The notes beneath the pieces were generated by a model, which made no database searches, was not told the DNA's origin, and saw only the letters and a list, made by a program, of their open reading frames with translations. Shown one piece after another: positions 23,476 to 46,432 of a stretch of 64,000 bases of DNA. Source of the stretch: a virus; the IMG/VR virus record IMGVR_UViG_3300028558_000016, positions 278,014 to 342,013 of that record; one strand, given 5' to 3'. The position numbers were made by a program, and so were the translations under genes. The stretch's first letter is position 1. Each line of letters begins with the position of its first letter.

Positions 23476-23838
23476 ATGACAATATATCATGGTACGGACA
23501 AAGAATCCGCAGAAAAAATACAACAGGATAAAATCCTGAAAGGCTCAGGAAGTTTTGGGCCTGGAATATGTCTCACACTCGAAAGAGCATTAAACTATTC
23601 AGCAGTCAAATGTGGAAAGCATGGTCCACAAGCAAAAAACATTGGACGAATAGTAATGATCGAAAATATTCCATCTCAAATATTGAACACCGCTTCAAAG
23701 GATGCTCCTGAAGGTTTCACTCTTAACGATGAGTTTGGAAAACCATCAAGAGGATTGCATTTACAAAAGGTGAGAATCCTATCCATCAAAGAAGCACAAT
23801 GCATGATGTCAATGGAACATGAATTTAATAGCAATTAA
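23476..23838 (+). CDS. ART-fold NAD+-binding domain protein resembling the C-lobe of Tpt1/KptA RNA 2'-phosphotransferase
   Basis: MTIYHGTDKESAEKIQQDKILKG...ICLTLE...GRIVMIE parallels the KptA segment [21 protein letters not shown]...HLS...PVILTV; no N-lobe R-H-R-R is seen. Confidence 0.3.
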   Translation: MTIYHGTDKESAEKIQQDKILKGSGSFGPGICLTLERALNYSAVKCGKHGPQAKNIGRIVMIENIPSQILNTASKDAPEGFTLNDEFGKPSRGLHLQKVRILSIKEAQCMMSMEHEFNSN

Positions 23839-23840
23839 AA

Positions 23841-24278
23841 ATGCAAAAATTTGAACGAATAGAAATTTCTGAAGAAAGAGCCAAACAGCTTGGAACAGAT
23901 GAGGTGTGGGTAAATGAAACTCATCAGGTAATTGTTTACAGAGATCCTAAAGAAGCTCCTGAGCTTCCACAAAATTCAAATCCAAAAGATTGGCCAGCGA
24001 TGATTTGGCTATCAATAAAACGTGTTGACAGGGAAGCGATGCATGATTGGAGAGAACTACAGGAAATAAAGAACATGATCGTCGGCCCAGAAAACGAAGC
24101 AGTAGAAGTTTATCCTGCTGAATCAAGATTGGTTGACACTTCAAACCAATATCACCTGTGGGTTTTTGCTGACAAGGAAGTAAGATTTCCATTTGGATTT
24201 ACTTCACGAGGTGTAGCTGATCCTGAACTTGCCGAAAAGATGGGTGCAAAACAAAGACCGTTTAATAAACATAACTAA
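23841..24278 (+). CDS. Hypothetical protein
   Basis: ORF; no motif recognised. Confidence 0.45.
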   Translation: MQKFERIEISEERAKQLGTDEVWVNETHQVIVYRDPKEAPELPQNSNPKDWPAMIWLSIKRVDREAMHDWRELQEIKNMIVGPENEAVEVYPAESRLVDTSNQYHLWVFADKEVRFPFGFTSRGVADPELAEKMGAKQRPFNKHN

Positions 24279-24526
24279 TGAGAGTAAAAACAAAATATGG
24301 AAATGGCACCTTGATTGGTGTTTCCTCCAACGGTGGAATAAATTTAAGTTTTAAAGTATTATTGGACAATACTTTTCCTTCTGATTTGCCTGAAGAAGAA
24401 AAAGAATTAAATGAAATCAAGAATGCTGAAAGCAGGATATACAATTGTTTATCTGTTGATGTATTAACTGATGATGGACAAGTAATAGAACTTGGAAAAG
24501 ATATAATAATTAAATTTGTAAAATGA
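24278..24526 (+). CDS. Hypothetical protein
   Basis: ORF with overlap junction. Confidence 0.4.
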   Translation: MRVKTKYGNGTLIGVSSNGGINLSFKVLLDNTFPSDLPEEEKELNEIKNAESRIYNCLSVDVLTDDGQVIELGKDIIIKFVK

Positions 24527-24855
24527 TGAAAGAGTCAGAAAAATTAAAACAACAATCAGCGGAAGAAGATAACGATCTTATTGCGATGGGTATTGGAAAG
24601 AAAATCATCCGCGAAGAACGAATAGAAAAGTTCGAGGAGAAATGGTTGAAGAAATTTCAATTGAAGTTTGGGGATAACATTAATTGGGTTCCTACAATGT
24701 ATTGTTATAGAATTAATGATAACGGAAAGATAATTGATTTCTATCCAAAGGCCAACAAGCTATTCATCAAAGAAAAGAATAATTGGGTTAAACCAGGATT
24801 AAAATTTTTAGTTAAAATGTATTTCACCGCTGACGAAATCAACGCTGCAATATAA
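24523..24855 (+). CDS. Hypothetical protein
   Basis: ORF with ATGA junction. Confidence 0.4.
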   Translation: MMKESEKLKQQSAEEDNDLIAMGIGKKIIREERIEKFEEKWLKKFQLKFGDNINWVPTMYCYRINDNGKIIDFYPKANKLFIKEKNNWVKPGLKFLVKMYFTADEINAAI

Positions 24856-24914
24856 AGAATTCGCTATTTTTTTGTATTTTTACTTAGTATGCTTACTGAT
24901 AAAAATCCAAAATT

Positions 24915-25235: not shown

Positions 25236-25242
25236 TGTAACT

Positions 25243-25259
25243 GCTTGATTATCAATAAG
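25243..25259. promoter_or_regulatory. Palindromic operator-like site TTGATTATCAA
   Basis: ctgcTTGATTATCAAtaag is the inverted copy of the site at 52391-52409 (18/19 identical). Confidence 0.5.
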
Positions 25260-25261
25260 TT

Positions 25262-25339: not shown

Positions 25340-26788
25340 ATGGCAACAAAATCATCAACAATGTCCGGCGAGGACATTAAAAAAACAGCGATCGATAAAG
25401 GATTAAAGGTCGCAATACTCGTATGTGTGTCAGATGACAACAATAACAAGTATTTCAATATGTACGAACAAGGAGATGGAACTTACATGGTAATCCGCGG
25501 AAGAGTGGACGTTACCGAAATAATCGAAGGTCCATACCCAATGTCAAAATGGGATGTTCATTACAAGGACAAAACAAAAGCAAACAAAAAACCAAAACCT
25601 TACACTGATCAAACTCATTTGTTCTCTGAACAAAAGAAAAGCGATGGTGCAGGAAAGAAAAAAGAAAAATCATCGAACTTCCATTCAAAGAGAACTGCAA
25701 TGGTAATTGATTTCGTGAAACAACTTCAAAAATTCGCAAATCAATCGGTAGAAGAAAACTACACGGTATCAGCCGCAAACGTTACTAAGAAGCAAGTTGA
25801 TTTCGCTCAACAAACTTTAAATCAAATTAGCGACATGGTTAAGAAAGGCGCAGAGGTTGGTCCAATCAATGACAAACTAATGGAGCTTTATCAAATCATT
25901 CCTCGTCGTATGAAACATGTGAATAACCACCTCATCATTACAGATGAAATGGAAAAAACACTTGGTAAAGTTGAGAAGACCGACAAAGAAAAAATGAAAG
26001 AGGCGAAAGCTAAAACATATTCAATGAAGATTAAATCTGATGCCGAGTTACAAAAAGCGCATGACATGATTGCCGGTGAGCAAGATACTCTTGACGTTAT
26101 GGCAGGTCAGGTTGCTGTTGAAGAACAGGAAAAGAAAGATCACGTTGAAACCCCAGGTGCTAAAAAAGAATACGATTTATTGCACGCAATGAAACTTGAT
26201 ATGGAAGATTGCGATAAGTATGAAATTGCAATGCTTAAGAATATGCTTGATCAAAACGCTAAAGCCGGCCACGAAAAGAATTCAAACCTTTTCAAACGTG
26301 CATATCGCGTTAAGAACGATAGCACTGAAGTTGCTTACAACAATTTCATGGGTAAAGTTAAAAACAAGAAGAAGGAATTATTGTGGCATGGAAGTCGCAA
26401 TGAAAACTGGTGGAGCATTTTCCAACAAGGTTTAGTTCTTCGTCCTACCAATGCAGTAATCACCGGTAAGATGTTTGGTTACGGATTATATTTCGCTGAC
26501 AAGGCGCAAAAATCCATAAACTACTCTTCTTATTCTGGAGCATCACGCTCTTACACAGGGGGTTCATCAAGGAATGCAATTCTTGCGGTATATGAAGTTC
26601 ACCAAGGAGATCAATTGGTAATTAAACGTCATGAGCACTCACACTCACAATTGACTGATAAACAAATGGAAAAACACGGTAAAGATTCTGTGTTCGCTCA
26701 AGGCGGTTATGACCTTGTGAATAACGAATACATTGTGTACAAGCAACAACAATGTACTATAAAATATCTTGTTGAAATTGGGAACTAA
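25340..26788 (+). CDS. Poly(ADP-ribose) polymerase (PARP) catalytic-domain protein with N-terminal WGR-like and helical regions
   Basis: LLWHGSRNENWWSIFQQGL (H-G-S), GKMFGYGLYFADKAQKS (Tyr), and DLVNNEYIVYKQQQCTIKYLVE (catalytic Glu) align one-to-one with the PARP1 LLWHGSR/GIYFAD/LLYNEYIVYD motifs. Confidence 0.75.
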   Translation: MATKSSTMSGEDIKKTAIDKGLKVAILVCVSDDNNNKYFNMYEQGDGTYMVIRGRVDVTEIIEGPYPMSKWDVHYKDKTKANKKPKPYTDQTHLFSEQKKSDGAGKKKEKSSNFHSKRTAMVIDFVKQLQKFANQSVEENYTVSAANVTKKQVDFAQQTLNQISDMVKKGAEVGPINDKLMELYQIIPRRMKHVNNHLIITDEMEKTLGKVEKTDKEKMKEAKAKTYSMKIKSDAELQKAHDMIAGEQDTLDVMAGQVAVEEQEKKDHVETPGAKKEYDLLHAMKLDMEDCDKYEIAMLKNMLDQNAKAGHEKNSNLFKRAYRVKNDSTEVAYNNFMGKVKNKKKELLWHGSRNENWWSIFQQGLVLRPTNAVITGKMFGYGLYFADKAQKSINYSSYSGASRSYTGGSSRNAILAVYEVHQGDQLVIKRHEHSHSQLTDKQMEKHGKDSVFAQGGYDLVNNEYIVYKQQQCTIKYLVEIGN

Positions 26789-28817: not shown

Positions 28818-28872
28818 GAAAACGGTAAACCCATGGTTGCCATGGTTGGTTGTCCTTTGGGTATTATCGTGA

Positions 28873-28904
28873 AAGGGTGGGAGGAAACTTCCACCCTTTT
28901 AATT
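28873..28904 (+). terminator. Rho-independent terminator
   Basis: aaGGGTGGgaggaaacttCCACCCtttt. Confidence 0.55.
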
Positions 28905-29280
28905 TTCCATGACTTTAAGAAGTATATAGCTTTAAATAACCAACACAGTCATGGCCAAAGCAAAAGCAGCCTCCACCAACTCAGTAAGGGCTTTAAACAG
29001 TTCAAAGAAGAACAGACCCGGAGTTCATTCCAAAAAGAAGAATTCAAGTCTTAAATCATCTAAAAACTATAAAAAGGCATATAGAGGACAGGGTAGATGA
29101 AACATTGTTTTGAGATTAGGGTATAGCTTTAGAAGGTTGCATCCAGCAAAAACAACTATCGTCTATGGCTTCGGCCTTCGATGATCCTACGACCTAAGCA
29201 ATCTGTGTTAGTTTCATTTGTTTTATTTTTATTAAAAGTGTAAGAGTCCAGGCCCCGTAAGGCCTGGATTTCTTATTTTT
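28905..29280 (+). ncRNA. Candidate structured non-coding RNA region
   Basis: About 370 nt without a credible ORF. Contains a GGCttcgGCC UUCG-tetraloop hairpin and ends in the strong hairpin TCCAGGCCccgtaaGGCCTGGA plus a U-run (29246-29275). Confidence 0.25.
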
Positions 29281-29314: not shown

Positions 29315-30472
29315 ATGCAGATACCTAAAGACATAGCAGAAATTCAACAAAAATTCATCGCCGCTGGAAAAGAAATTTTCCTCGTTGGTGGATGTGTTCG
29401 TGATTTCAAGCTTGGTCTTGAGCCCAAAGATTTGGACATGGCAACCAATGCCTTTCCAGAAGAAATTGAAACCATCCTCAAAGGAGTTGAGATGGACCTT
29501 ACAGGCAAAAGTTTTGGAGTCATGCGGGTTCGCAGTGAGTTCGATCCAAACGGATACGAAATTGCCACATACAGAGAAGATGAGAGTGCTGGAAGAAAAC
29601 CGACCGTAAAGATCGGATCAACCATGGAAAACGATGCGTGGAGAAGAGACTTCACGATCAACGCTCTTTACTATGATATTTCCAACAAGACTATAATTGA
29701 TCACACTGGCGGGCTCAATGATTTAGAAAACAAAATCATTCGTGCTTGTGGCGATCCTGCGAAAAGAATTAACGATGATGCTTTGAGAATGCTTAGGGCA
29801 GTTCGTTTCAAAAATACTATTGGTGGAACTATTGATGTTGACTTGCATAATGCAATGTTGGCCAATCCTGTTTTACAAGGTCCAGACAAAGATGGAAATA
29901 TAGTACCAATATCACAGGAGAGAATAGCTGAGGAATTCCTTAAAGGTCTTTCCAAAAGCTACAACATGGATCTCGTTGACCAATATGTGAAAGATTTAAT
30001 GACATACCAATTTCTTGGACAAGTGTTCAGAGGACTTCACGTAAATGATAATTTTACATGCAACTCAAGAAAGCCTGAGATAATGATTGCGGATCTTTTA
30101 CGTTTTAATACGAATCACAAGGATTTATTTAATAAGCTTGTTTATGATTGCAAATTCAGTATTGATATTGCCGAAGGAGTTATTTTTCTTTTGAGCCTTG
30201 AAGATATTGATGAGGACAAAGTGTACAAGCTAAGAAAAAGAATGGACAGCAAAACCAAATTAAATAAGGATGATCTTATTATTTATTCAGGTTTAATGGT
30301 AGAGAATGGAATGATTGGAAGAGTTGCTTATGTACATGCATTCACTAAATATTCCATAACAACAAGCGGAGATGAATTAAAAGAAAAGGAAGGATTTGTT
30401 GATGGAGCAGAACTTGGAGCAGAGATAGCAAAAAGAGAGAAAAACAATTTTTTAAAAATATTTACACAATGA
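29315..30472 (+). CDS. cca: tRNA nucleotidyltransferase (CCA-adding enzyme / poly(A) polymerase head-domain family)
   Basis: FLVGGCVRDFKLGLEPKDLDMAT (GGxVRD...DxD) and RRDFTINALYYD motifs of class II CCA enzymes. Confidence 0.75.
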   Translation: MQIPKDIAEIQQKFIAAGKEIFLVGGCVRDFKLGLEPKDLDMATNAFPEEIETILKGVEMDLTGKSFGVMRVRSEFDPNGYEIATYREDESAGRKPTVKIGSTMENDAWRRDFTINALYYDISNKTIIDHTGGLNDLENKIIRACGDPAKRINDDALRMLRAVRFKNTIGGTIDVDLHNAMLANPVLQGPDKDGNIVPISQERIAEEFLKGLSKSYNMDLVDQYVKDLMTYQFLGQVFRGLHVNDNFTCNSRKPEIMIADLLRFNTNHKDLFNKLVYDCKFSIDIAEGVIFLLSLEDIDEDKVYKLRKRMDSKTKLNKDDLIIYSGLMVENGMIGRVAYVHAFTKYSITTSGDELKEKEGFVDGAELGAEIAKREKNNFLKIFTQ

Positions 30473-32784: not shown

Positions 32785-33144
32785 ATGGCAGCTTTTTACA
32801 TATTGTTAGGAGTTATGTGTGGAGTAGTTGGAATTTTCATATTCGGTTATTATGCTTCAAAGAAGGATAACAAAAAATTTGATGCAACCGAAACAATGAA
32901 TAAAACTGTAACTGAAAGCTCAGGCCCAATTTGGCCTGAGCCTGGTTACATGAGCGAACCTATATGGCAATCAACAAGGATTGAAACAACGTTCGTCAAT
33001 GCTGGAAAAGGTTCAGAAAAAAAGTCAGACAAGAATGCAAAAGAAAAACCTCTTGAAGACCAATTGAAAGAAGCTCTTGAAAATGAATGGTACGAAAAGG
33101 CTGCAGAAATTAGAGATAAAATTAATAACGCTAAAACCAAATAA
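32785..33144 (+). CDS. Membrane-anchored protein with C-terminal UVR-like motif
   Basis: N-terminal TM helix; C-terminus LEDQLKEALENEWYEKAAEIRDKI resembles the UvrB/UvrC UVR motif. Paralogous to the C-terminus of ORF 47966. Confidence 0.4.
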   Translation: MAAFYILLGVMCGVVGIFIFGYYASKKDNKKFDATETMNKTVTESSGPIWPEPGYMSEPIWQSTRIETTFVNAGKGSEKKSDKNAKEKPLEDQLKEALENEWYEKAAEIRDKINNAKTK

Positions 33145-37905: not shown

Positions 37906-38409
37906 ATGAGACCTATAGATCATAACGACACCTTATTGTACTTTGAAGAAGAAACTGGTTTTCTTTATAAGAAGAAGAAATATAGCGGCGCAGATTATTT
38001 TTCTCCGTTAAATTTTTGTACTTTAGAGTGTACACCTAAAAAAGATAATCATGGCAACACAATTAACACCGTCAAAGAAGCAATTCAAGAACATACAGGA
38101 AATATACAACTACGCAGAGAACCAAAACGACAACCTGCACGTTGGGGACTTAGACCATACGTCAGCCTGCGAGATAGAACACCGAGACGGGTCCAAGTTT
38201 TATTTAACCAATGTTCACATGGAATTGGTACGGTTCACAACAAAAACATTCGACGAAACTGTGTACATAGCATACTCGGAACATCACCAACCACTCGTGT
38301 ATATGGAATCGGACCTCGTGTCAGAACCAAAAATAATCCCATTAGGAAAGAAGAAGCTCGTAAAAAAGAAATAAGATTTCCAATATCACATGGGACGAGA
38401 AAATTTTAA
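37906..38409 (+). CDS. Hypothetical protein; ambiguous frame (ORF 38051..38374 in the +1 frame looks more protein-like downstream of about 38050)
   Basis: The first roughly 50 codons look genuine, then the frame becomes Arg-rich and atypical. The overlapping +1 frame has normal composition, and an A-rich heptamer ccuAAAAAAg sits at the junction. Confidence 0.3.
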   Translation: MRPIDHNDTLLYFEEETGFLYKKKKYSGADYFSPLNFCTLECTPKKDNHGNTINTVKEAIQEHTGNIQLRREPKRQPARWGLRPYVSLRDRTPRRVQVLFNQCSHGIGTVHNKNIRRNCVHSILGTSPTTRVYGIGPRVRTKNNPIRKEEARKKEIRFPISHGTRKF

Positions 38410-38845
38410 GCTATTAATACGTAATTTAAGAACGATGGAAACAACATGCGGGATATTTTTATTCTTAAAAAACGGAAAACTGTTGTTGGGACACGTAACA
38501 AACACTCAAGACAAATGGAGCATTCCGAAAGGACTTCCGGATGATGGAGAAGAATTGTTCGATGCAGCCAAACGAGAGATGTTCGAGGAGTCAAACATAG
38601 AATACGATAAGCTTAAGATAAACACCATTGTAAACAACCAATATACTTATTATAAGAATGGAAAGAAGAAGCTGTTCTCATTAACAGTTCACACTCATAA
38701 TGAGGAAAAAGATTTTGATTTGAAATGTCATTCTTTGGTAAATGATGATTTTCCTGAAATAGATGGATATAAATTTGTCACAATAAAAGAAGCATTGGAT
38801 ATGGACATCCAAGAAACACAAAAAGAAATATTAAGAAATATATGA
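38390..38845 (+). CDS. Nudix hydrolase
   Basis: GLPDDGEELFDAAKREMFEESNI fits Gx5Ex7REUxEEx(G/N)U. Confidence 0.65.
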   Translation: MGRENFKLLIRNLRTMETTCGIFLFLKNGKLLLGHVTNTQDKWSIPKGLPDDGEELFDAAKREMFEESNIEYDKLKINTIVNNQYTYYKNGKKKLFSLTVHTHNEEKDFDLKCHSLVNDDFPEIDGYKFVTIKEALDMDIQETQKEILRNI

Positions 38846-39348
38846 ATAAGCTCGAATATAGAATGTATGGAATAGTTCCTTACAACATTTCAGAAATACA
38901 AAAAGGAATCCAATTTGGACATGCTGTTGTAGAATACTCGTTGAAGTATTTTAAGAACGAAGACTTTCAACAGTGGGCCAAGAAGCACAAAACATTCATG
39001 GTTATGAATGGAGGAACAACCAATATGGGAGAAGGAACAATTCAAGGAAGACCCGATTGGATGGTTGAAGAACTTAAAGGGTCATTAAATAAATACGCCG
39101 ATTTACTTTCCAAAAATAAAATCAAATGCGCTTATTTCTTTGAGCCAGACTTAAATGATGCTTTAACTGCCGCGGTATTTCTTGCAGATGAAAGAGTTTT
39201 CGACAAGATTAAATATCCTGATTATGTTCCTCTTTCTTTTGATTTAGCAAAAAATGATCCACAACACGAGAAAGAATGGGTCAAATCTATAGGAGGAAAA
39301 CAAAATGTTTTCCTTCGTGAATTCATATCTAAACTAAGATTTGCATGA
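38842..39348 (+). CDS. Hypothetical protein
   Basis: ORF with ATGA junctions on both sides. Confidence 0.4.
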   Translation: MNKLEYRMYGIVPYNISEIQKGIQFGHAVVEYSLKYFKNEDFQQWAKKHKTFMVMNGGTTNMGEGTIQGRPDWMVEELKGSLNKYADLLSKNKIKCAYFFEPDLNDALTAAVFLADERVFDKIKYPDYVPLSFDLAKNDPQHEKEWVKSIGGKQNVFLREFISKLRFA

Positions 39349-40031
39349 AAACGACAGACAAATACGTATTATTTTATACTGAGGTATTTTCTCAGTGGCA
39401 TCCTTCCAATTTTGAAGTAGGAGGTAAAAAATTCTGCACAGCAGAACAATTCATGATGTATTTCAAAGCATTAACGTTCGGTGATCAAGAGATTGCAGAC
39501 AAGATATTAGCAACAAATAGTCCACGTGAACAAAAGAAACTTGGACGCGCTGTTAAAGGATTTGATGCTGTTAAATGGAATGCAATAGCCAAGGAAGTTG
39601 TATTCAAAGGAAACAGAGCTAAGTTTCAACAGAATCCAGAAATGTTCGAACAATTAATGGCAACAGGACACAAAGAACTTGTTGAAGCTTCCCCTTATGA
39701 TACTATATGGGGAATAGGCTTTGATGAAAATGCTCCTGAAGCTCTTGATAAGTCAACATGGAATGGAACAAATTGGCTTGGCGAAGTATTAACAAAGCTT
39801 AGAGATGTTCTTAGAAGAGAACAGACAATTCAAAACATAGTGAAACATGGTGAAGCTGAATTGGAAAAATTTGCCAGGGATTATCCAAATGACATAGGAC
39901 GATTGTATGAAAGCTATAAAAAATTGAAAACACAATCTTGGTCTGAAGATTTTTTAAGAGGATATTTAGGAGCTATAACAGATTTAATTATTATTAAAAA
40001 AGGACATTGGGGAGACTCATTTGTAAAATAA
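39345..40031 (+). CDS. NADAR-domain protein (YbiA-like; NAD/ADP-ribose N-glycosidase family)
   Basis: VLFYTEVFSQWHPSNFEVGGKKFCTAEQFMMYFKA...LGRAVKGFD...KFQQNP...LVEASPYDTIWGIGFDE parallels the E. coli YbiA pattern. Confidence 0.7.
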   Translation: MKTTDKYVLFYTEVFSQWHPSNFEVGGKKFCTAEQFMMYFKALTFGDQEIADKILATNSPREQKKLGRAVKGFDAVKWNAIAKEVVFKGNRAKFQQNPEMFEQLMATGHKELVEASPYDTIWGIGFDENAPEALDKSTWNGTNWLGEVLTKLRDVLRREQTIQNIVKHGEAELEKFARDYPNDIGRLYESYKKLKTQSWSEDFLRGYLGAITDLIIIKKGHWGDSFVK

Positions 40032-40654: not shown

Positions 40655-40668
40655 TAGATATATAAGTC

Positions 40669-42575: not shown

Positions 42576-42658
42576 GCCCATGTGGCGGAATTGGTAGACG
42601 CGCCGGTCTTAGGAACCGGTGCCTTTAAGGCGTGCAGGTTCGAGTCCTGTCATGGGTA
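42576..42658 (+). tRNA. tRNA-Leu (anticodon TAG), class II
   Basis: GCCCATG acceptor, AATTGGTAG D-loop, anticodon loop CTTAGGA, long variable arm, GTTCGAGT T-loop; no encoded CCA. Confidence 0.8.
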
Positions 42659-42739
42659 CAACGTGGTGAAAGTACATTCAGACTGTACCATCAGATTTTA
42701 GCTACTGATGAAGCATTTGTGGTGATGCTGCTGCGAATT

Positions 42740-42826
42740 GGTGAGATGTCCGAGTGGTTTAAGGAGCAACCCTGGAAAGGTTGTATACGGGAAACCGTAT
42801 CGTGGGTTCGAATCCCACTCTCACCG
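42740..42826 (+). tRNA. tRNA-Ser (anticodon GGA), class II
   Basis: GGTGAGA acceptor, 3-bp D-stem with GAGTGGTTTAA loop, anticodon loop CTGGAAA, long variable arm, discriminator G. Confidence 0.8.
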
Positions 42827-42836
42827 CAAATAAAAT

Positions 42837-42920
42837 GGAAGGTTGGTAGAGCGGTCTATTGCACCAGTCTTGAAAACTGGAGATCCTACGGGGTCCGTGA
42901 GTTCGAATCTCACACCTTCC
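42837..42920 (+). tRNA. tRNA-Ser (anticodon TGA), class II
   Basis: GGAAGGT acceptor, D-arm GTA/GAGCGGTCTAT/TGC, anticodon stem CCAGT with loop CTTGAAA; very similar to E. coli tRNA-Ser(UGA). Confidence 0.8.
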
Positions 42921-42926
42921 GCAATT

Positions 42927-43014
42927 GGAGAGCTACTCAAGTTGGTTAAGAGGCGCGTTTGCTAAACGTGTAGGACGAGAAATCGTTGGGTGGGTTCGAA
43001 CCCCACGCTCTCCG
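42927..43014 (+). tRNA. tRNA-Ser (anticodon GCT), class II
   Basis: GGAGAGC acceptor, anticodon loop TTGCTAA, long variable arm, discriminator G. Confidence 0.75.
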
Positions 43015-43025
43015 CAGAAAATTCT

Positions 43026-43108
43026 GCCCCCATGGTGGAATTGGTAGACACGCAGGACTTAAAATCCTGTGCCCTTAGGGCGTACGAGTTCGAGTCTCGT
43101 TGGGGGTA
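43026..43108 (+). tRNA. tRNA-Leu (anticodon TAA), class II
   Basis: GCCCCCA acceptor, anticodon stem CAGGA/TCCTG with loop CTTAAAA, long variable arm. Confidence 0.8.
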
Positions 43109-43115
43109 CATAAAT

Positions 43116-43197
43116 GCCGAGTTGGCGGAATTGGTAGACGCGCTGGTCTCAAACACCAGTGACGAAAGTCGTGTGGGTTCGAGTCCCACACTCGGTA
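43116..43197 (+). tRNA. tRNA-Leu (anticodon CAA), class II
   Basis: GCCGAGT acceptor, anticodon stem CTGGT/ACCAG with loop CTCAAAC, long variable arm. Confidence 0.8.
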
Positions 43198-43213
43198 CAA
43201 GAAGAAGAATAAA

Positions 43214-44677
43214 ATGGAAAATGATAAAAAATATTGCTTGGTGATGTTTCCTTATCCGTCTGGAGATGGATTGCACATTGGACATTGCTACAACTACTTG
43301 ATAGTTGATAGCTATTGTCGTTGGATGAAGAGAAAAGGAATTGAAGTGTTTCAACCATTTGGTTATGACGCTTTCGGTTTGCCTGCGGAGAATTATGCGA
43401 TCAAGCATAACAGAGATCCAAAAGAAGTCACCTATGAAAACATAGAAAATTTCAGAAGGCAGATGAAGAGATTGGATACTAATTATGAAGAGAAGTTAAT
43501 TACAGCTGATCCATCTTATTTCAAATGGACACAATGGTTGTTCACAAAGATGTTGGAGAAGGGAATTGCTTACAAGAAATTTCATCCAGTAAACTTTTGT
43601 CCATCTTGCGCAACAGTGATTGCCAATGAGCAGGTGAAGGAAGGAAAATGTGAGAGATGCAATTCAGTTGTTGAGATGAAAAACTTGAATCAATGGTTCT
43701 TCAGAATAACAGACTACACAGATAGGTTGATCAAGAACTTGCAATGGTTGGATTATCCCGAGAAAACCAAGAAGCAACAATTACATTGGTTGGAGAAGAT
43801 GAAAGAAAACAAGATCGATTGGTGTGTGTCAAGACAGAGAAAATGGGGATGTCCAATTCCTGTTGAAGGAGAGGAAGATACTTTGGACACATTTGTTGAC
43901 AGCTCATTTTACTACTTGAGATTCTTGACGGATTCTGAAGATGAATTCTTGCCAAGAGAAAAATATAAGCAGGTTGATTTGTACGTCGGAGGAAATGAAC
44001 ATGCTTGCATGCATTTGATTTATGCAAGATTTGTGAACATGTTCTTGTATGACTTGGGAATTGTTGAACAAGAAGAACCGTTCAAGAAGTTGATTCATCA
44101 GGGAATGATCAAGATGAATGGAACAAAGATGTCCAAGTCTATCGGCAATGTTGTTAATCCGGATGGGTATGATCCAGATGAATTGAGATTTTACTTGATG
44201 TTCATTGGACATTATTTTGATGGCGGAGATTGGAACGATCAAAACATTGTTGGCATAAGAAAATTCTTTGCACGATGGGATAAGCTTACTTTTAGAGAAG
44301 CAAAGGAAGGAATTGAATCTATGGATTTGACTGAATTTGAAAACCAGATCGATGGTTATGTGAAAGCTTTCAAGTTCAATAAGGTTGTTAGTTCATTCAT
44401 GGAATTTTACAACAATAATAGCAGCAGAAACTTTGACAAGGAAACCAGATTGAAGTTGAGAAGAATGTTGGAGTGTTTTGCGCCAACAAGATTTTCTAAA
44501 GATGAAAGGCCTCCAGTTGGCATGGATGAATTAAGAAGAAAATCCAATGAGTTGTCTGAGAACGTAAACAAGATTGAAGTAATGGTTAATAAAATTTTTA
44601 AAGATGTTGAACAAAAAGAAAATATCACCGGAATATCCGAGAATACCTCACTTGATGGGGAAGTCAAATCTGTATGA
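43214..44677 (+). CDS. leuS: Leucyl-tRNA synthetase-like class I aaRS catalytic core, apparently lacking the CP1 editing and C-terminal domains
   Basis: PYPSGDGLHIGHCYNY (HIGH) and MNGTKMSKSIGN (KMSKS). Only about 265 aa lie between the two motifs and 487 aa in total, against about 860 aa in bacterial LeuRS. Zinc knuckle CPSC...CERC present. Confidence 0.8.
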   Translation: MENDKKYCLVMFPYPSGDGLHIGHCYNYLIVDSYCRWMKRKGIEVFQPFGYDAFGLPAENYAIKHNRDPKEVTYENIENFRRQMKRLDTNYEEKLITADPSYFKWTQWLFTKMLEKGIAYKKFHPVNFCPSCATVIANEQVKEGKCERCNSVVEMKNLNQWFFRITDYTDRLIKNLQWLDYPEKTKKQQLHWLEKMKENKIDWCVSRQRKWGCPIPVEGEEDTLDTFVDSSFYYLRFLTDSEDEFLPREKYKQVDLYVGGNEHACMHLIYARFVNMFLYDLGIVEQEEPFKKLIHQGMIKMNGTKMSKSIGNVVNPDGYDPDELRFYLMFIGHYFDGGDWNDQNIVGIRKFFARWDKLTFREAKEGIESMDLTEFENQIDGYVKAFKFNKVVSSFMEFYNNNSSRNFDKETRLKLRRMLECFAPTRFSKDERPPVGMDELRRKSNELSENVNKIEVMVNKIFKDVEQKENITGISENTSLDGEVKSV

Positions 44678-45308
44678 CGATGACATTGAGATCAATGTTG
44701 AGTTAGGGTTTGATGCCTTTGTACAAGAGAAGGTTGATGGAGCAAACTGTGGAATCAGTTGGTTCGATGGACCCATTCTCAGAAACAGAACCCATGTGTT
44801 AAGAAAGGGATTTGAAAGAGACACTCCAGCAAAGAAACAATTTGTTCCAGCTTGGAATTGGTTGCATGAAAGAGAAGATGACTTGAAGGAGATGATGAAG
44901 AAGTGGAATGGACAGATAACTGTTTATGGAGAGTGGATGCTTGCAAAACATTCTATTGGATATGAGAAGCTTCCAGATTATTTTCTTGCTTATGACATTT
45001 GGTCGTGTGAAGAAAACAAGTTTGTTTCTCCGAAGGAATGCAAGGAACTTTTGAATGGGACTGGCATAAGATGGATCGAAGCAGAAAGAATAAGCATTCA
45101 ATCGTTCTCTGATTTGAAGTCAGTTCTTGATGTTCCCTCTAAGTACAGAGATGGAATTAAAGAAGGAATAGTTATCAAGAAAACTGACGAAGACGATAAG
45201 TGGATAGAGAAGACTTTCAAGGTTGTTAGAAAAGATTTTGAAAGGGCTGATGAAAGCTGGAATAAGAAAAAGCTTGAAAAGAATAAGCTGATAAAGAGGA
45301 GTGCCTGA
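44655..45308 (+). CDS. Minimal ATP-dependent polynucleotide (probably RNA) ligase, nucleotidyltransferase domain only
   Basis: Motif I EKVDGAN (KxDG), motif IV EGIVIKK, motif V KVVRKD. The track ORF starts at 44604 inside leuS; 44655 is the internal ATG. Confidence 0.5.
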   Translation: MGKSNLYDDDIEINVELGFDAFVQEKVDGANCGISWFDGPILRNRTHVLRKGFERDTPAKKQFVPAWNWLHEREDDLKEMMKKWNGQITVYGEWMLAKHSIGYEKLPDYFLAYDIWSCEENKFVSPKECKELLNGTGIRWIEAERISIQSFSDLKSVLDVPSKYRDGIKEGIVIKKTDEDDKWIEKTFKVVRKDFERADESWNKKKLEKNKLIKRSA

Positions 45309-45380
45309 GTGGCTGAAAGGACCGGTCTCGAAAACCGGCACACCCAAAAGGTGTCGTGAGTTCGAATCTCACCTCCTCTG
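45295..45380 (+). tRNA. tRNA-Ser (anticodon CGA), class II
   Basis: AGAGGAG acceptor (A1-U72), D-arm CCT/GAGTGGCTGAA/AGG, anticodon loop CTCGAAA, long variable arm, discriminator G; overlaps the last 14 nt of the ligase ORF. Confidence 0.75.
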
Positions 45381-45419
45381 CATTTTTTAATTTGATGATT
45401 TTTTTGTAAATTCACTATC

Positions 45420-45725
45420 ATGAATGATGAAGATAAAAAAATAAAGGGATCATTGTTTTTCTTGTACATCGGCAAGCTTAAAGAATTGGGTTTGATAGAA
45501 GGTGGCGCAGGAGATTTGACCATGAAAGGTTTTGACATTGCCATTGATGCCTATAACAGTGGACATAGATTGTCAGATGAGGAGATTAGTAATTTTCTCG
45601 AAGCCGCTCCTGGAATGGACGATGACGACACAATAGAGGCAGCATTTGGAATGATAGCCAAGATGCAAGAAATTGGATTTGATGGAATGAAAGAATTGGT
45701 TGAACGAGTAAAGAAAACATTATGA
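45420..45725 (+). CDS. Hypothetical acidic protein
   Basis: ORF with ATGA junction to Sir2. Confidence 0.4.
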   Translation: MNDEDKKIKGSLFFLYIGKLKELGLIEGGAGDLTMKGFDIAIDAYNSGHRLSDEEISNFLEAAPGMDDDDTIEAAFGMIAKMQEIGFDGMKELVERVKKTL

Positions 45726-46432
45726 AAAAGAAATTAGTGGTGTTTAGCGGTGCAGGAGTTTCTGCTGAGAGCGGAATTCCTACATTCAGAGATTCAAATG
45801 GTCTTTGGGAAAACCATAAGATGGAAGATGTTGCTACTCCAGAAGGATGGGAGAAAAACAGAGAGCTTGTTCTCAACTTCTACAATCTTATGAGAACGAA
45901 ACTCAAAGCAGTTGTTCCGAATAAAGCTCACAATATAATTGCAGAGCTTGAAGAACATTTTGAAGTTACAGTCATCACACAAAACATAGATGACTTGCAT
46001 GAGAGAAGCGGCTCAAAGAAGGTCATACATCTTCATGGAGAATTAATGAAGAGCAGAAGCACATTTAATCCAAATCTAAAATACGAGTGTACTGGAAATA
46101 TAAACATAGGTGACAAATGTGAGAAAGGTTCTCAATTGAGGCCTGACATAGTTTGGTTTCATGAAAATGTTTATCACCTTGACACTGCGGCTGAATTGGT
46201 AGAACAGTGCGATATTCTTCTTGTTGTTGGAACTTCATTAAATGTTTGGCCTGCAGCAGGATTGTTATATGTGACGAAACCGGAAACTGAAATATATTGC
46301 ATTGATCCAAAAACAGTTGTTGGAAGTGATATTCAAGTTACTCACATAAAGAAGAAAGCGAGTGAAGGGATGGAGAAATTTAAAAAGATTATTCTCGAGA
46401 AAAAAGATAAGAAAGAAAATTGCTGTTTATAA
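45722..46432 (+). CDS. Sir2-family NAD-dependent protein deacylase / ADP-ribosyltransferase (sirtuin, CobB-like)
   Basis: FSGAGVSAESGIPTFR, TQNIDDLHERSG, catalytic His in IHLHGEL, and VVGTS are canonical sirtuin motifs. Confidence 0.8.
   Translation: MKKKLVVFSGAGVSAESGIPTFRDSNGLWENHKMEDVATPEGWEKNRELVLNFYNLMRTKLKAVVPNKAHNIIAELEEHFEVTVITQNIDDLHERSGSKKVIHLHGELMKSRSTFNPNLKYECTGNINIGDKCEKGSQLRPDIVWFHENVYHLDTAAELVEQCDILLVVGTSLNVWPAAGLLYVTKPETEIYCIDPKTVVGSDIQVTHIKKKASEGMEKFKKIILEKKDKKENCCL

What the first reader, a model, noticed from the sequence alone, without database searches (positions are those of the whole stretch)
23476..46432. A phage carries a complete NAD+ writer/eraser/salvage toolkit: PARP, NADAR, Sir2, NadV, PncC-like/NMNAT, two Nudix and a Tpt1-like ART domain
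Seen in sequence: eight genes with NAD+/ADP-ribose chemistry sit within about 23 kb. They are:
- a PARP (25340) with the H-G-S / Y / E triad;
- NAMPT (34288);
- a CinA/PncC-like plus HxGH adenylyltransferase fusion (31148);
- Nudix boxes (33145, 38390);
- a NADAR domain (39345);
- a sirtuin (45722);
- a YHGT ART-fold protein (23476).

Established knowledge: phage NadV plus NMNAT reconstitute NAD+ and counter NAD-depleting defences such as Thoeris, DSR and Sir2-type effectors. NADAR proteins have been reported to remove ADP-ribose from guanine bases. Nudix enzymes hydrolyse ADP-ribose.

Inference: the salvage pair is co-resident with an apparently active PARP, an eraser (NADAR), ADPR-clearing Nudix enzymes and a sirtuin. 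This suggests the phage does more than refill NAD+ and may run its own ADP-ribosylation cycle on host or phage targets. I know of no described system combining these components.
Basis: partly seen in the sequence, partly recalled or inferred. Interest (0 to 1): 0.85.

Follow-up and report, generated by a model that had tools for sequence, protein, structure and literature searches.

The report
Phage NAD+ salvage and repair island
A roughly 482-kb uncultivated phage really does cluster a PARP, NAD+ salvage enzymes, NADAR, two Nudix enzymes, a sirtuin and a tiny ART-fold protein, but this is a new example of the published "NAD-jumbo phage" pattern, built from several separate gene blocks tied to RNA/DNA repair rather than one new system.

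Summary
All eight calls hold at the stated coordinates. Pfam supports PARP (H-Y-E intact), NMNAT, NAMPT, two Nudix, NADAR and SIR2. Structure prediction supports the other two: a CinA/PncC fold at the NMNAT N-terminus, and an ART fold, closest to KptA/Tpt1, for the 120-aa protein.

The set is not accidental. The order PARP…CCA-adding enzyme–NMNAT–Nudix–NAMPT–Nudix–NYN–NADAR recurs in relatives with 51% PARP identity. A more distant clade keeps (Nudix)–NAMPT–NADAR–Macro–HAD…Sir2 together and carries PARP elsewhere in the same genomes.

It is not one system. Terminator-like hairpins split the genes into at least three units. No PARG or Macro lies in the window. Across 87 PARP loci, PARP's commonest neighbours are DNA/RNA ligases, a 2H-like phosphoesterase, RlaP and an uncharacterised family (38842–39348).

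The concept is published: NAD-jumbo phages with salvage plus PARP (2024), NADAR next to NadV/NadM and sirtuin–RNA-repair neighbourhoods (2021/2022), and phage NADAR against DarTG1 (2025).

Best reading: an NAD+ supply, ADP-ribose clean-up and nucleic-acid repair island. New details are the CinA-fold–NMNAT fusion, a zinc-less sirtuin clade and the PARP–p38842–2H–RlaP–ligase neighbourhood.

The parts
23476..23838 (+). 120-aa minimal ADP-ribosyltransferase-fold protein. Conserved motifs: YHGT, GPGICLT, TLNDE.
25340..26788 (+). PARP: WGR-like N-terminus (RGR in place of W/YGR), a helical middle region and a catalytic domain with H350-Y384-E463.
   Evidence: PF00644, 92 bits. PARP2/PARP1 are the best solved matches and the triad aligns. 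Homologues at 41-45% identity carry PF05406 WGR. G54, R55, W71, H350, Y384 and E463 are invariant in 28 sequences.
28870..29271 (+). Two terminator-like hairpins (28870-28901 and 29244-29271) between the PARP block and the CCA/NAD-salvage block.
   Evidence: Stems of 14 and 11 bp followed by T runs. This is a pattern match only.
29315..30472 (+). CCA-adding enzyme / poly(A) polymerase-family nucleotidyltransferase. It is a conserved upstream neighbour of the NMNAT fusion, with one small ORF between them.
   Evidence: PF01743, 113 bits. The same neighbourhood occurs in L005, L006, L092 and L093. A homologue sits next to PARP in Cellulophaga phage phi4:1.
31148..32488 (+). CinA/PncC-fold domain (about residues 1-200) fused to an NMN/NaMN adenylyltransferase with the motifs GSFNPIHAAH and ISSTKIR.
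   Evidence: PF01467 and nadD models. Profile versus PDB NadD/NMNAT, E 1.8e-12. N-terminal model pLDDT 92.9; the top 21 Foldseek hits are all CinA proteins. Only 76 homologues in 5.8 billion proteins, and they keep the two-domain architecture.
32785..33144 (+). Small membrane-anchored protein with a UVR motif, conserved between the NMNAT and Nudix genes.
   Evidence: PF02151. Found at the same position in L005, L006 and L092.
33145..33990 (+). Nudix hydrolase 1, with an intact REAMEETG core and a C-terminal extension. It lies between NMNAT and NAMPT, where NadM carries its fused Nudix domain.
   Evidence: PF00293, 33.7 bits. Weak hits to NtrR and CoA-pyrophosphatase models. Position conserved in L006 and L092.
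34288..36081 (+). Nicotinamide phosphoribosyltransferase (NadV/NAMPT), with the HDFGYRG motif present.
   Evidence: PF18127 + PF04095. PRK09198, 399 bits. phrog_448, 376 bits. Homologues in 2006 phage records.
36083..37501 (+). NYN-domain RNase (36083-36562), a small ORF, and a Pol-beta/RlaP-like nucleotidyltransferase (36869-37501).
   Evidence: PF01936, 81 bits; PF01909 and PF10127. NYN is conserved in L006 and L092.
38390..38845 (+). Nudix hydrolase 2. It has a canonical Nudix box apart from the last Gly, and its end overlaps the next gene by 4 nt.
   Evidence: PF00293, 55 bits. Weak RppH-type hits. Overlaps listed.
38842..39348 (+). p38842 family, of unknown fold. It is translationally coupled to Nudix 2 and to NADAR, and in other phages lies next to PARP, RNA ligase, a 2H-like gene, NADAR or Sir2.
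   Evidence: phrog_3668 only. No Pfam or PDB hit. A homologue is present in 42 of 87 PARP loci. Other contexts.
39345..40031 (+). NADAR domain protein with a roughly 70-aa C-terminal extension. E34 and K41 have the same 7-residue spacing as the catalytic E36 and K43 of T4 AdfN.
   Evidence: PF08719, 171 bits. TIGR02464, 158 bits. Solved NADAR 8bau E 5e-17 and YbiA E 3e-10. Catalytic residues from PMC11825919.
42536..42559 (+). Terminator-like hairpin that ends the salvage/NADAR unit, just before the tRNA array.
   Evidence: 10-bp stem followed by TTTTATTTT.
42576..46519 (+). tRNA/RNA-repair block: six tRNAs (Leu/Ser), a 487-aa LeuRS-like protein (43214-44677), an RNA ligase (44604-45308), tRNA-Ser, a 101-aa ORF, Sir2 and tRNA-Leu.
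   Evidence: ARAGORN. TIGR00396, 402 bits. PF09414, 93 bits.
45722..46432 (+). CobB-like class III sirtuin. GAGxS, QNID and the catalytic HG are present, but only 2 of the zinc-ribbon cysteines.
   Evidence: PF02146, 155 bits. CobB 1s5p/6rxj, E 1e-45, with alignment. 68 of 71 relatives in viral contigs have 0-2 Cys in that segment.
48482..50535 (+). 2H-like phosphoesterase with a C-terminal zinc ribbon (48482-49225), a small ORF, and a polynucleotide kinase-phosphatase (49588-50535).
   Evidence: HxS and HxT motifs invariant in 20 homologues. PF22547 2H-SAK is sub-threshold at E 8e-4, hit by 6 of 20 members. AAA_33 + PNK3P.
18773..19903 (-). RlaP-family nucleotidyltransferase; its homologues lie near PARP in 32 of 87 loci.
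   Evidence: PF10127, 64.5 bits. phmmer counts.
55390..56070 (+). Small ligase/capping-type nucleotidyltransferase; its homologue sits immediately upstream of PARP in closer relatives.
   Evidence: PF01068 and PF01331. Next to PARP in L006, L007, L012, L013 and L092.

Best explanation
The region is an 'NAD+ supply, ADP-ribose clean-up and nucleic-acid end-repair' island of a roughly 482-kb phage. It is made of several separately transcribed blocks of known kinds, not one integrated writer/eraser machine.

1. Salvage (NARP2-type). NAMPT makes NMN from nicotinamide and PRPP. The C-terminal NMNAT domain of the fusion protein adenylylates NMN to NAD+. The N-terminal CinA-fold domain keeps the mononucleotide-phosphate-binding residues but not the deamidase Ser/Lys dyad, so it most likely captures or hands over NMN rather than deamidating it. 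A stand-alone Nudix occupies the place of the Nudix domain fused in NadM.

2. Clean-up. The translationally coupled Nudix-p38842-NADAR trio degrades ADP-ribose adducts and derivatives. NADAR would cut ADP-ribose-base N-glycosidic bonds, as AdfN and DarG1 do on guanine. Nudix would cut the pyrophosphate bond.

3. RNA repair. The CCA-adding enzyme, NYN RNase, RlaP-type nucleotidyltransferases, RNA ligase, 2H-like esterase, Pnkp and the Leu/Ser tRNA genes maintain tRNAs. The zinc-less CobB-like sirtuin, and possibly the 120-aa ART-fold protein, would use NAD+ in this pathway in the way KptA does, by removing 2'-phosphate.

4. PARP. It lies in its own upstream unit and is most likely an ADP-ribosyltransferase activated by nucleic-acid breaks, working with ligases.

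Salvage both feeds these phage NAD+ consumers and offsets NAD+-depleting host defences.

Shown here: domain and fold identities, catalytic motifs, gene order, its conservation, and predicted terminators. Inferred: every enzymatic activity, all substrates, the timing of expression, and the division of labour.
For: Identities.

Separate transcription units: terminator-like hairpins between blocks, contrasted with 4-nt overlaps inside blocks, for example Nudix2/p38842/NADAR.

Conserved order: small ligase-x-PARP-x-CCA-x-NMNAT-x-UVR-Nudix-NAMPT-..-Nudix-x-NYN-NADAR in L092, and nearly the same in L006, at 51% PARP and 58% NAMPT identity.

NMNAT fusion context: directly followed by NAMPT and a kinase-Tpt1 fusion in L094, and next to the CCA-adding enzyme in L093.

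PARP neighbours in 87 loci: 2H-like 44, p38842 42, DNA ligase 38, RNA ligase 37, RlaP 32. L058 has the order DNA ligase-x-RNA ligase-x-x-PARP-p38842-2H-..-RlaP. Cellulophaga phage phi4:1 has CCA-PARP-x-DNA ligase.

Sir2 relatives: 18 of 80 loci have NAMPT and 19 of 80 have NADAR upstream on the same strand. L150 and L146 read (Nudix)-NAMPT-NADAR-Macro-HAD_SAK-..-Sir2-..-PRPP synthetase/Thg1. Seven contigs appear in both the PARP and the Sir2 top-80 lists.

Literature: NARP2 definition (PMC13464706); NADAR next to NadV/NadM and sirtuin/HAD-SAK/RNA-ligase neighbourhoods predicted to act like KptA (PMC9503650); phage NADAR removes DarT1 marks (PMC11825919); PncC residues (PMC5384747).
Against: - Nothing here is experimental.
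- All context comes from metagenomic contigs. Many are related, so the locus counts are not independent events.
- Nudix and NADAR substrates cannot be read from sequence. The NADAR scores best against the YbiA-type riboflavin-intermediate N-glycosidase model.
- The sirtuin is closest to protein deacylases (CobB, SIRT5) and may simply deacylate proteins.
- RNA ligase is rarely within 6 kb of Sir2 in relatives: 1 of 80 loci.
- The mapping of CinA residues rests on a weak hhalign alignment to an E. coli PncC sequence recalled from memory.
- The WGR motif is RGR in this clade, and Pfam does not detect WGR or PARP_reg in this protein.
- Terminators are pattern matches, and promoter-like sites are not enriched.
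Confidence: 0.5

Rival explanations
1. One reading: one integrated, phage-run ADP-ribosylation cycle. PARP and the small ART write marks on host or phage targets. NADAR and Nudix, and perhaps p38842, erase and clear them. NAMPT and NMNAT recycle the released nicotinamide. The sirtuin adds a second NAD+-dependent regulatory arm.
For: - Writers, hydrolases and salvage genes co-occur, and do so in two phage clades at genome level.
- The p38842 family lies directly next to PARP in 42 loci, and next to NADAR in this window with a 4-nt overlap, which links the two by context.
- A NADAR of the YbiA subfamily is the antitoxin of a non-DarT ART (YarT), so NADARs can pair with other ARTs (PMC11125620).
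Against: - PARP and NADAR lie in different predicted transcription units.
- Only 5 of 87 PARP loci have a NADAR within 10 kb.
- No PARG, Macro or ARH is present in the window.
- Characterised NADARs act on ADPr-guanine in DNA, not on protein or PAR linkages.
Confidence: 0.18
2. A pure counter-defence arsenal. Every component independently neutralises a host NAD+-based immune system. Salvage counters Thoeris, DSR and Sir2-HerA NAD+ depletion. NADAR counters DarTG1. Nudix and p38842 destroy ADPr-derived signals. PARP, the ART and Sir2 modify host proteins, as T4 Alt and Mod do. RNA repair is only a neighbour.
For: - NARP pathways and phage NADAR (AdfN) are experimentally proven counter-defences (PMC13464706; PMC11825919).
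- The genes lie in a long co-oriented block of small accessory genes, typical of early or host-takeover regions.
Against: - RNA/DNA end-repair genes recur tightly next to PARP, p38842 and the NMNAT fusion across clades. This is hard to explain by adjacency alone.
- The WGR-type PARP architecture is that of break-activated enzymes (PMC8120803).
Confidence: 0.2
3. A chance accumulation of auxiliary metabolic genes in the large accessory region of a huge phage, with no functional relationship among them.
For: - Huge phages carry many such genes. NadV is found in 33% and NADAR in about 48% of large phages (PMC9503650), so several in one genome is expected.
- The genes are interspersed with many unrelated ORFs.
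Against: - The order is conserved at 51% PARP identity.
- The NAMPT-NADAR-..-Sir2 cluster was found separately by homology search in a clade whose PARPs are only 35-39% identical.
- Genes are translationally coupled within blocks.
Confidence: 0.06

Closest known systems
NAD-jumbo phages (Li et al. 2024, Microbiome, PMC11662467)
   Same: Phages over 200 kb, many assigned to Bacteroidota hosts, encode a complete NAD+ salvage route (NAMPT in 71 of 174) together with NAD+-consuming enzymes that include PARP1-like proteins. The authors propose that the phage both makes and spends NAD+.
   Different: That work is a KEGG-level inventory. It does not describe the CinA-fold-NMNAT fusion, the NADAR/Nudix/p38842 trio, the sirtuin, or the link between PARP and ligases, 2H and RlaP. 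Whether this contig belongs to their clades was not tested.
NARP2 (NadV + NMNAT) NAD+ reconstitution pathway, including KVP40 NadV/NatV
   Same: An adjacent NAMPT and NMN adenylyltransferase convert nicotinamide to NAD+ via NMN (definition in PMC13464706). NadV with NadM or NadR is the standard phage arrangement (PMC9503650).
   Different: Here the adenylyltransferase is fused to neither a Nudix domain (NadM/NatV) nor a kinase (NadR). It is fused to an N-terminal CinA/PncC-fold domain, and the Nudix is a separate gene. Activity and counter-defence were not tested. The KVP40 details come from my own knowledge.
Phage NAD+-ADPr networks and NAD+-dependent RNA repair (Iyer, Burroughs, Anantharaman, Aravind 2021 and 2022; PMC7824862, PMC9503650)
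   Same: These papers describe NADAR next to NadV/NadM, co-occurring Macro/NADAR/Nudix, PARP-type ARTs in phages, a phage sirtuin clade beside RNA ligase, 2H, Nudix and HAD-SAK genes that is predicted to act like KptA, and RlaP and CCA-adding enzymes in RNA repair.
   Different: I found no mention there of a PARP neighbourhood with RNA/DNA ligase, 2H and RlaP, of the p38842 family, or of a CinA-NMNAT fusion. Their dataset was 21,191 sequenced viral proteomes, not metagenomic huge phages.
AdfN / DarG1-type NADAR hydrolases (Johannesman et al. 2025, PMC11825919; Cihlova et al. 2024, PMC11125620)
   Same: A stand-alone phage NADAR with the conserved Glu and Lys at the same spacing as E36 and K43 of T4 AdfN.
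   Different: This NADAR scores best on the YbiA-type model, has a roughly 70-aa C-terminal extension, and is translationally coupled to p38842 and a Nudix. No DarT context is known for its host.
Bacterial WGR-PARPs (Herpetosiphon aurantiacus and Clostridioides difficile CD160 PARPs; Cytophagales clade)
   Same: Same architecture of WGR-like, helical and catalytic domains, with the H-Y-E triad. About 42% identical to Bacteroidota/Microscillaceae proteins.
   Different: The bacterial PARPs tested in vitro (H. aurantiacus, C. difficile) are each reversed by a cognate PARG. None is in this window. This clade has RGR in place of W/YGR. The neighbours are ligases and RNA-repair genes.
KptA/Tpt1 RNA 2'-phosphotransferase
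   Different: It lacks the whole N-terminal RNA-binding lobe, does not hit PF01885, and its family has only about 35 representatives.
PncC / CinA C-terminal domain (NMN deamidase)
   Same: Same fold, with TM 0.6-0.7 to 2a9s, 5kvk and 4ct8. Motif-level matches to blocks P-I (ExGCG), P-II (GAS) and the Tyr of P-III.
   Different: PF02464 is not hit. Catalytic S31 and K63 of AtCinA align to variable or Gln positions. The family has its own invariant residues (H106, H122, D166). It is fused to NMNAT.

Membership tests
PARP (PF00644, H-Y-E clade, PARP1-3-like) | Catalytic domain profile match above the curated threshold | tested here: met
   92 bits against a 26.7-bit cut-off. PARP2 and PARP1 are the best solved matches.
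PARP (PF00644, H-Y-E clade, PARP1-3-like) | His-Tyr-Glu catalytic triad | tested here: met
   H350, Y384 and E463 align to the PARP2 triad and are invariant in 28 homologues.
PARP (PF00644, H-Y-E clade, PARP1-3-like) | WGR and regulatory helical domains | tested here: inconclusive
   Pfam does not detect them in this protein. Full-length homologues carry PF05406. G54, R55 and W71 are invariant, but the motif is RGR.
PARP (PF00644, H-Y-E clade, PARP1-3-like) | NAD+-dependent (poly)ADP-ribosylation stimulated by nucleic-acid breaks | not testable with these tools
   Needs biochemistry.
NARP2 / NadV-NMNAT salvage | NAMPT (NadV) present | tested here: met
   PF18127 + PF04095; phrog_448, 376 bits. 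PRK09198 scores 399 bits, just under its 405-bit cut-off.
NARP2 / NadV-NMNAT salvage | NMN adenylyltransferase with HxGH and ISSTxxR motifs, encoded near NadV | tested here: met
   PF01467 and nadD models. Motifs GSFNPIHAAH and ISSTKIR. It lies 1.8 kb upstream of NAMPT. The two are near or adjacent in L006, L092 and L094.
NARP2 / NadV-NMNAT salvage | Restores NAD+ and rescues the phage from NAD+-depleting defences | not testable with these tools
   Needs enzyme assays and infection assays.
NadM (NMNAT-Nudix fusion) | Nudix domain fused to the adenylyltransferase | tested here: not met
   The fusion partner is an N-terminal CinA-fold domain. The Nudix is a separate gene two ORFs downstream.
PncC/CinA_C NMN deamidase | CinA C-terminal fold | tested here: met
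   The top 21 Foldseek hits are all CinA proteins, E down to 9e-6, probability 1.0, on a model with pLDDT 92.9.
PncC/CinA_C NMN deamidase | Sequence-profile membership (PF02464) | tested here: not met
   No Pfam hit for the window protein and none precomputed for 76 homologues. No PDB sequence hit, even with a profile.
PncC/CinA_C NMN deamidase | Ser/Lys catalytic dyad (S31 and K63 in AtCinA) | tested here: inconclusive
   In a weak hhalign alignment the Ser position is T22, which varies across the family (T/M/I/C/V/S/N), and the Lys position is Q54. Residue roles are from PMC5384747. No structure superposition was available.
NADAR (AdfN / DarG1 / YbiA) | NADAR domain profile | tested here: met
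   171 bits against a 35.1-bit cut-off. TIGR02464, 158 bits. Solved NADAR 8bau, E 5e-17.
NADAR (AdfN / DarG1 / YbiA) | Conserved catalytic Glu and Lys | tested here: met
   E34 and K41 align with the Glu and Lys of 8bau. Their spacing equals that of E36 and K43 in T4 AdfN.
NADAR (AdfN / DarG1 / YbiA) | Removes ADP-ribose from guanine in DNA / counters DarT1 | not testable with these tools
   Needs biochemistry or genetics.
Sirtuin class III (CobB/SIRT5-like) | SIR2 profile and catalytic His | tested here: met
   155 bits. CobB, E 1e-45; the HLHGEL motif aligns with the catalytic His of CobB.
Sirtuin class III (CobB/SIRT5-like) | Zinc ribbon with its full set of cysteines | tested here: not met
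   Only two Cys in the segment. 68 of 71 viral relatives have 0-2.
Sirtuin class III (CobB/SIRT5-like) | NCBIfam equivalog/subfamily cut-off | tested here: not met
   Best model NF001753 scores 205 bits against a 243-bit cut-off.
KptA/Tpt1 RNA 2'-phosphotransferase | PF01885 profile and the two-lobe architecture with an N-terminal RNA-binding lobe | tested here: not met
   No Pfam hit. The protein is 120 aa and covers only the ART lobe.
KptA/Tpt1 RNA 2'-phosphotransferase | ART-fold NAD+-binding lobe | tested here: met
Nudix hydrolases | Nudix box GX5EX7REUXEEXGU | tested here: met
   PF00293 hits both proteins. Sequence read: 38390 has G48..E54..R62EMFEES; 33145 has REAMEETG with a one-residue shift upstream.
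Nudix hydrolases | ADP-ribose pyrophosphatase specificity | not testable with these tools
   Only weak, mixed NCBIfam hits (NtrR, CoA pyrophosphatase, RppH, NudE).
2H phosphoesterase (SAK type) | Two H-x-S/T motifs and a profile match | tested here: inconclusive
   H63-x-S65 and H128-x-T130 are invariant in 20 homologues. PF22547 scores 20.1 bits against a 27-bit cut-off, E 8e-4, and is hit by 6 of 20 members.

The most novel reading that the evidence does not exclude
WGR-type PARPs are widespread in large uncultivated phages: 233 IMG/VR contigs encode a relative. They may form the core of an undescribed nucleic-acid end-repair module: DNA ligase-RNA ligase-PARP-p38842-2H-RlaP. In this reading PARP senses or ADP-ribosylates broken RNA or DNA ends. 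The phage-restricted p38842 family would be a new ADP-ribose or RNA-end processing enzyme; it also sits next to NADAR, Sir2 and RNA ligase. In this window the module has been dispersed and coupled to a salvage route that uses a CinA-fold NMN-binding domain to feed NMNAT. That would give a prokaryotic-virus counterpart of PARP-dependent break repair, and a new eraser family.
Probability: 0.22. Interest if true: 0.75.

Novelty: new member of a known kind. Interest (0 to 1): 0.42.

Why it matters
As stated, the finding adds one more well-resolved example to a published pattern: huge phages that both rebuild and spend NAD+. Its value lies in the details it makes testable.

1. A rare CinA-fold-NMNAT fusion replaces the Nudix or kinase partner of the known phage NMNATs. 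It may show how NMN is handed from NAMPT to NMNAT.
2. Context suggests that phage PARPs belong with ligases and RNA-repair enzymes rather than with host-protein modification.
3. A phage-restricted protein family of unknown fold (p38842) repeatedly neighbours PARP, NADAR, Sir2 and RNA ligase. It is a concrete candidate for a new ADP-ribose-related activity.
4. A zinc-less sirtuin clade is linked to NAMPT, NADAR, Macro and HAD-SAK genes.

All four could be addressed with a handful of recombinant proteins.

Tried and rejected
- Megablast of the 23-kb region against 50,697 phage records found no match. There is no close cultured relative.
- A single-protein search for NAMPT relatives in IMG/VR found none. 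Alignment-based searches were needed instead.
- Sequence and profile searches of the CinA-like domain, the 120-aa protein, the p38842 family and the 2H-like family against PDB sequences gave nothing significant. Fold-level evidence was obtained only for the first two, because only two structure jobs were allowed.
- p38842 as a peptidyl-tRNA hydrolase (PTH2): hhalign against a recalled human PTRH2 sequence was negative, so this was rejected.
- p38842 as a SLOG/LOG-like domain: there are only two weak, concordant hints, Pfam LSDAT_euk at E 0.23 and hhalign to LOG's PGGxGT motif at E 0.19 with a recalled sequence. This is left open and not claimed.
- A regex for the PARG signature GGG-X6-8-QEE in all six frames found nothing.
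- The sigma-70 promoter scan showed no enrichment: 68 sites against 71 expected, and 42 against 33. Only the terminator-like hairpins were used.
- Sir2 as part of an RNA-ligase neighbourhood in relatives was not supported directly. RNA ligase lies within 6 kb in 1 of 80 loci. The link to RNA repair rests instead on HAD_SAK, Thg1 and tRNA_bind neighbours and on this window's own layout.
- The afdb50 fold library was unavailable.
- The LR756500 huge phage has PARP (35% identity) and an RNA-ligase relative, but no NAMPT, NADAR or Sir2 within 20 kb. The toolkit is therefore not universal among PARP phages.

Full report
**What is there**

The window is part of a 482,156-bp metagenomic contig. The PARP protein is found identically on it and on two shorter contigs from other samples. 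From 22.7 to 51 kb almost all genes are on the + strand and tightly packed, many with 1-4 nt overlaps.

- PARP catalytic domain (25340-26788)
- a cytidylyltransferase-like NMN/NaMN adenylyltransferase (31148-32488)
- two Nudix proteins (33145-33990 and 38390-38845)
- NAMPT (34288-36081)
- NADAR (39345-40031)
- SIR2 (45722-46432)

NCBIfam and PHROGs agree with these. The PARP His-Tyr-Glu triad (H350, Y384, E463) aligns with that of human PARP2 and is invariant in 28 homologues. Full-length homologues at 41-45% identity, many from Bacteroidota MAGs, carry a Pfam WGR domain. The architecture is therefore the bacterial WGR-helical-catalytic type, although this clade has RGR where others have W/YGR.

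**The two calls Pfam does not see**

*The NMNAT N-terminus.* The N-terminal ~200 residues of the NMNAT protein have no Pfam, NCBIfam, PHROG or PDB sequence match, even as a profile. A model built on 29 homologues has pLDDT 92.9. Its 21 best Foldseek hits in the PDB are all CinA/PncC proteins (E 9e-6 to 6e-4, TM up to 0.70), and the next hit is at E 0.014.

The family is rare, with 76 homologues in 5.8 billion proteins, and keeps the two-domain architecture. Motif matching gives a split picture:
- ExGCG, GAS and PYSK correspond to the PncC blocks that bind the mononucleotide phosphate.
- The catalytic Ser and Lys, whose mutation abolishes deamidase activity (PMC5384747), fall on a variable position and on Gln.

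That alignment is weak and used a PncC sequence recalled from memory. I treat 'binds NMN but does not deamidate it' as an inference.

**What surrounds the eight genes**

RNA- and tRNA-directed functions are interleaved with them:
- a CCA-adding enzyme (29315)
- an NYN RNase (36083)
- two RlaP-type nucleotidyltransferases (36869, and 18773 on the minus strand)
- eight tRNA genes, all Leu or Ser
- a 487-aa LeuRS-like protein
- an RNA ligase (44604)
- a 2H-like phosphoesterase with invariant HxS and HxT motifs (48482; PF22547 2H-SAK sub-threshold)
- a polynucleotide kinase-phosphatase (49588)

No Macro, PARG or ARH domain was found among the ORFs scanned across the window, and no PARG signature in any frame.

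Terminator-like hairpins at 28870-28901 and 29244-29271 separate the PARP block from the CCA-NMNAT-Nudix-NAMPT-...-Nudix-p38842-NADAR block. Another at 42536-42559 ends that block before the tRNA/LeuRS/RNA-ligase/Sir2 block. The eight genes therefore fall into at least three predicted transcription units. Nudix 2, the 168-aa ORF p38842 and NADAR overlap by 4 nt each and look translationally coupled.

**Is the clustering meaningful?**

Two relatives with 51% identical PARP and 58% identical NAMPT are L006 (80-kb contig) and L092/L013 (374-kb IMG/VR contig). L092 has the compact order small ligase-x-PARP-x-CCA-x-NMNAT-x-UVR-Nudix-NAMPT-..-Nudix-x-NYN-NADAR, and L006 nearly the same. Other contexts:
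- A closer relative (71%) shows the same start of the block before its contig ends.
- The NMNAT fusion is followed directly by NAMPT and a kinase-Tpt1 fusion in a 549-kb contig. It sits beside the CCA-adding enzyme in a 438-kb contig that also carries a T4-like major capsid gene.
- One 47%-PARP relative has a PRPP-synthetase-like gene and a short NAPRTase-like gene downstream of PARP. This resembles the other known reconstitution route, NARP1. That is a resemblance only.

**PARP's own company**

An alignment-based scan found 233 IMG/VR contigs encoding a full-length relative. In the 87 PARP loci collected (80 from IMG/VR, 7 from metagenome look-ups), the genes most often found within 10 kb are shown below.

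| Neighbour within 10 kb of PARP | Loci (of 87) |
|---|---|
| 2H-like gene (homologue of 48482) | 44 |
| p38842 family | 42 |
| ATP-dependent DNA ligase | 38 |
| RNA ligase | 37 |
| RlaP | 32 |
| CCA-adding enzyme | 6 |
| NADAR | 5 |
| NAMPT | 3 |
| Sir2 | 1 |

The typical order is DNA ligase-x-RNA ligase-x-x-PARP-p38842-2H-..-RlaP. Cellulophaga phage phi4:1 has CCA-PARP-x-DNA ligase. The closer relatives have a small ligase-like gene just upstream of PARP. Many of these loci are related, so the counts are not independent. Even so, the association of PARP with strand-joining and end-healing enzymes holds in three distinguishable groups.

The p38842 family is nearly confined to phage-like contigs: 3 GenBank huge phages, and 10 MAG contigs among 185,579 species genomes. 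It also occurs without PARP, right after RNA ligase and before the 2H-like gene, before CCA and RlaP, next to NADAR, or directly upstream of the sirtuin. Its fold remains unknown.

**The sirtuin**

It is closest to CobB and SIRT5-type deacylases (E 1e-45) and has the catalytic His, but it has only two of the zinc-ribbon cysteines. It scores below NCBIfam cut-offs.

A scan found 177 IMG/VR contigs with relatives. In the best 80 loci, 18 have NAMPT and 19 have NADAR a few kb upstream on the same strand. In 68 of 71, the zinc segment has 0-2 cysteines.

Two such loci read (Nudix)-NAMPT-NADAR-Macro-HAD_SAK-...-Sir2, followed by genes that include a Nudix and a tRNA-binding protein in L150, and PRPP synthetase and Thg1 in L146. 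Seven contigs occur in both the PARP and the Sir2 top-80 lists. So a clade whose PARPs are only 35-39% identical to this one carries the same gene set, arranged differently.

**Comparison with what is known**

The general idea is published:
- Li et al. 2024 (PMC11662467) define 'NAD-jumbo phages'. 174 of 668 gut jumbo phages have complete NAD+ synthesis plus at least 15 kinds of NAD+-consuming enzymes, including PARP1-like proteins, and one major clade is assigned to Bacteroidota hosts.
- Iyer et al. [quoted passage not shown] They describe NADAR in neighbourhoods with NadV/NadM, PARP-type ARTs among the commonest viral ART families, and a phage sirtuin clade beside RNA ligase, 2H, Nudix and HAD-SAK genes that they predict removes RNA 2'-phosphate like KptA.
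- Their 2021 jumbo-phage survey (PMC7824862) lists phage PARPs, RlaP, CCA-adding enzymes and NAD+ synthesis together.
- NAD+ reconstitution as counter-defence (NARP1-3) and phage NADAR as an anti-DarTG1 enzyme are experimentally established (PMC13464706; PMC11825919).
- Bacterial WGR-PARPs are active in vitro, and the two tested ones are each reversed by a cognate PARG (PMC8120803).

I found no description of the CinA-fold-NMNAT fusion, the p38842 family, or the PARP-ligase-2H-RlaP neighbourhood. The library searched is not complete.

**Most likely mechanism**

I read the region as a mosaic island (confidence about 0.5).
1. NAMPT and the NMNAT fusion rebuild NAD+ from nicotinamide.
2. The coupled Nudix-p38842-NADAR trio removes ADP-ribose adducts or derivatives.
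3. The tRNA/RNA-repair genes, with the sirtuin and perhaps the small ART as NAD+-using steps, keep translation going under attack.
4. PARP, transcribed separately, acts at nucleic-acid breaks with ligases.

Salvage serves both as fuel for these consumers and as a shield against NAD+-depleting defences.

The rivals are:
- a pure counter-defence arsenal (about 0.2)
- chance accumulation (about 0.06)

The cycle model is weakened by the predicted unit boundaries, the missing PARP-type eraser, and the rarity of NADAR near PARP. It is not excluded, because p38842 links PARP and NADAR by context.

**Verdict**

In novelty it is a new member of a known kind, with three or four unusual features worth bench work. 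Interest is moderate.

Noticed in passing
window 42576-43198, 45295-45381, 46437-46519 and 43214-44677: All eight tRNA genes in the window are Leu (4) or Ser (4), the long-variable-arm class. They are interleaved with a 487-aa LeuRS-like protein that matches the 843-aa bacterial LeuRS model only in four pieces, so it may lack parts of the bacterial enzyme such as the editing domain (domain content not examined).
   Followed up: partly
window 38842-39348; homologues e.g. L058:11296-12009, L095:5986-6498, L030:18372-18848: A phage-restricted protein family (phrog_3668) of unknown fold. It is translationally coupled to Nudix and NADAR here. Elsewhere it lies directly next to PARP (42 of 87 loci), RNA ligase, a 2H-like gene, NADAR or Sir2. 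There are weak hints of a SLOG/LOG-like glycine motif only.
   Followed up: partly
window 1287-6950: Three consecutive large ORFs (463, 745 and 674 aa) consist largely of Gly-X-Ser triplet repeats of the SG[FYV]SG type. They look like collagen-like fibre proteins.
   Followed up: no
L105-L184 (Sir2-centred IMG/VR loci), e.g. L150:140-6729, L146:37-6753: A conserved cluster (Nudix)-NAMPT-NADAR-Macro-HAD_SAK-...-Sir2 occurs in a different phage clade. In L150 the NAMPT gene appears split by an inserted ORF rich in Cys motifs.
   Followed up: partly
window 45722-46432 and relatives L105-L184: This phage sirtuin clade has lost most zinc-ribbon cysteines: 0-2 Cys in 68 of 71 relatives.
   Followed up: partly
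L007:12054-15520: In a relative with 47% identical PARP, a PRPP-synthetase-like gene and a short NAPRTase-like gene lie downstream of PARP in place of NAMPT and NMNAT. This resembles the NARP1 (Adps + Namat) route.
   Followed up: no
L094:13046-14164: A fusion of a CoaE/AAA_18-type kinase and Tpt1 (PF01885) lies next but one (one 53-aa ORF between) after NMNAT-fusion-NAMPT in a 549-kb contig. It links salvage to NAD+-dependent RNA repair.
   Followed up: no
window 40007-41592: A PspC-domain protein, two small transmembrane ORFs and a phosphatidylserine decarboxylase-like protein follow NADAR in the same predicted transcription unit.
   Followed up: no
window 51041-52266 (minus strand) and 55390-56070: A GNAT acetyltransferase, a PrsW-type membrane protease and a small ligase/capping-type nucleotidyltransferase are found here. 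Homologues of PrsW and the small ligase lie next to PARP in L006, L007, L012 and L013.
   Followed up: partly
window 48482-49225: The 2H-like protein here carries an extra C-terminal zinc-ribbon (CPNC...CTYC) that is absent from its roughly 173-aa homologues.
   Followed up: no
window 13071-14042 (minus strand): An ORF matches phrog_10081, annotated as a transposase, inside the phage region.
   Followed up: no
window 42632-43244: The ORFs listed at 42632-42949 and 42990-43244 overlie the tRNA array and are almost certainly not genes.
   Followed up: yes
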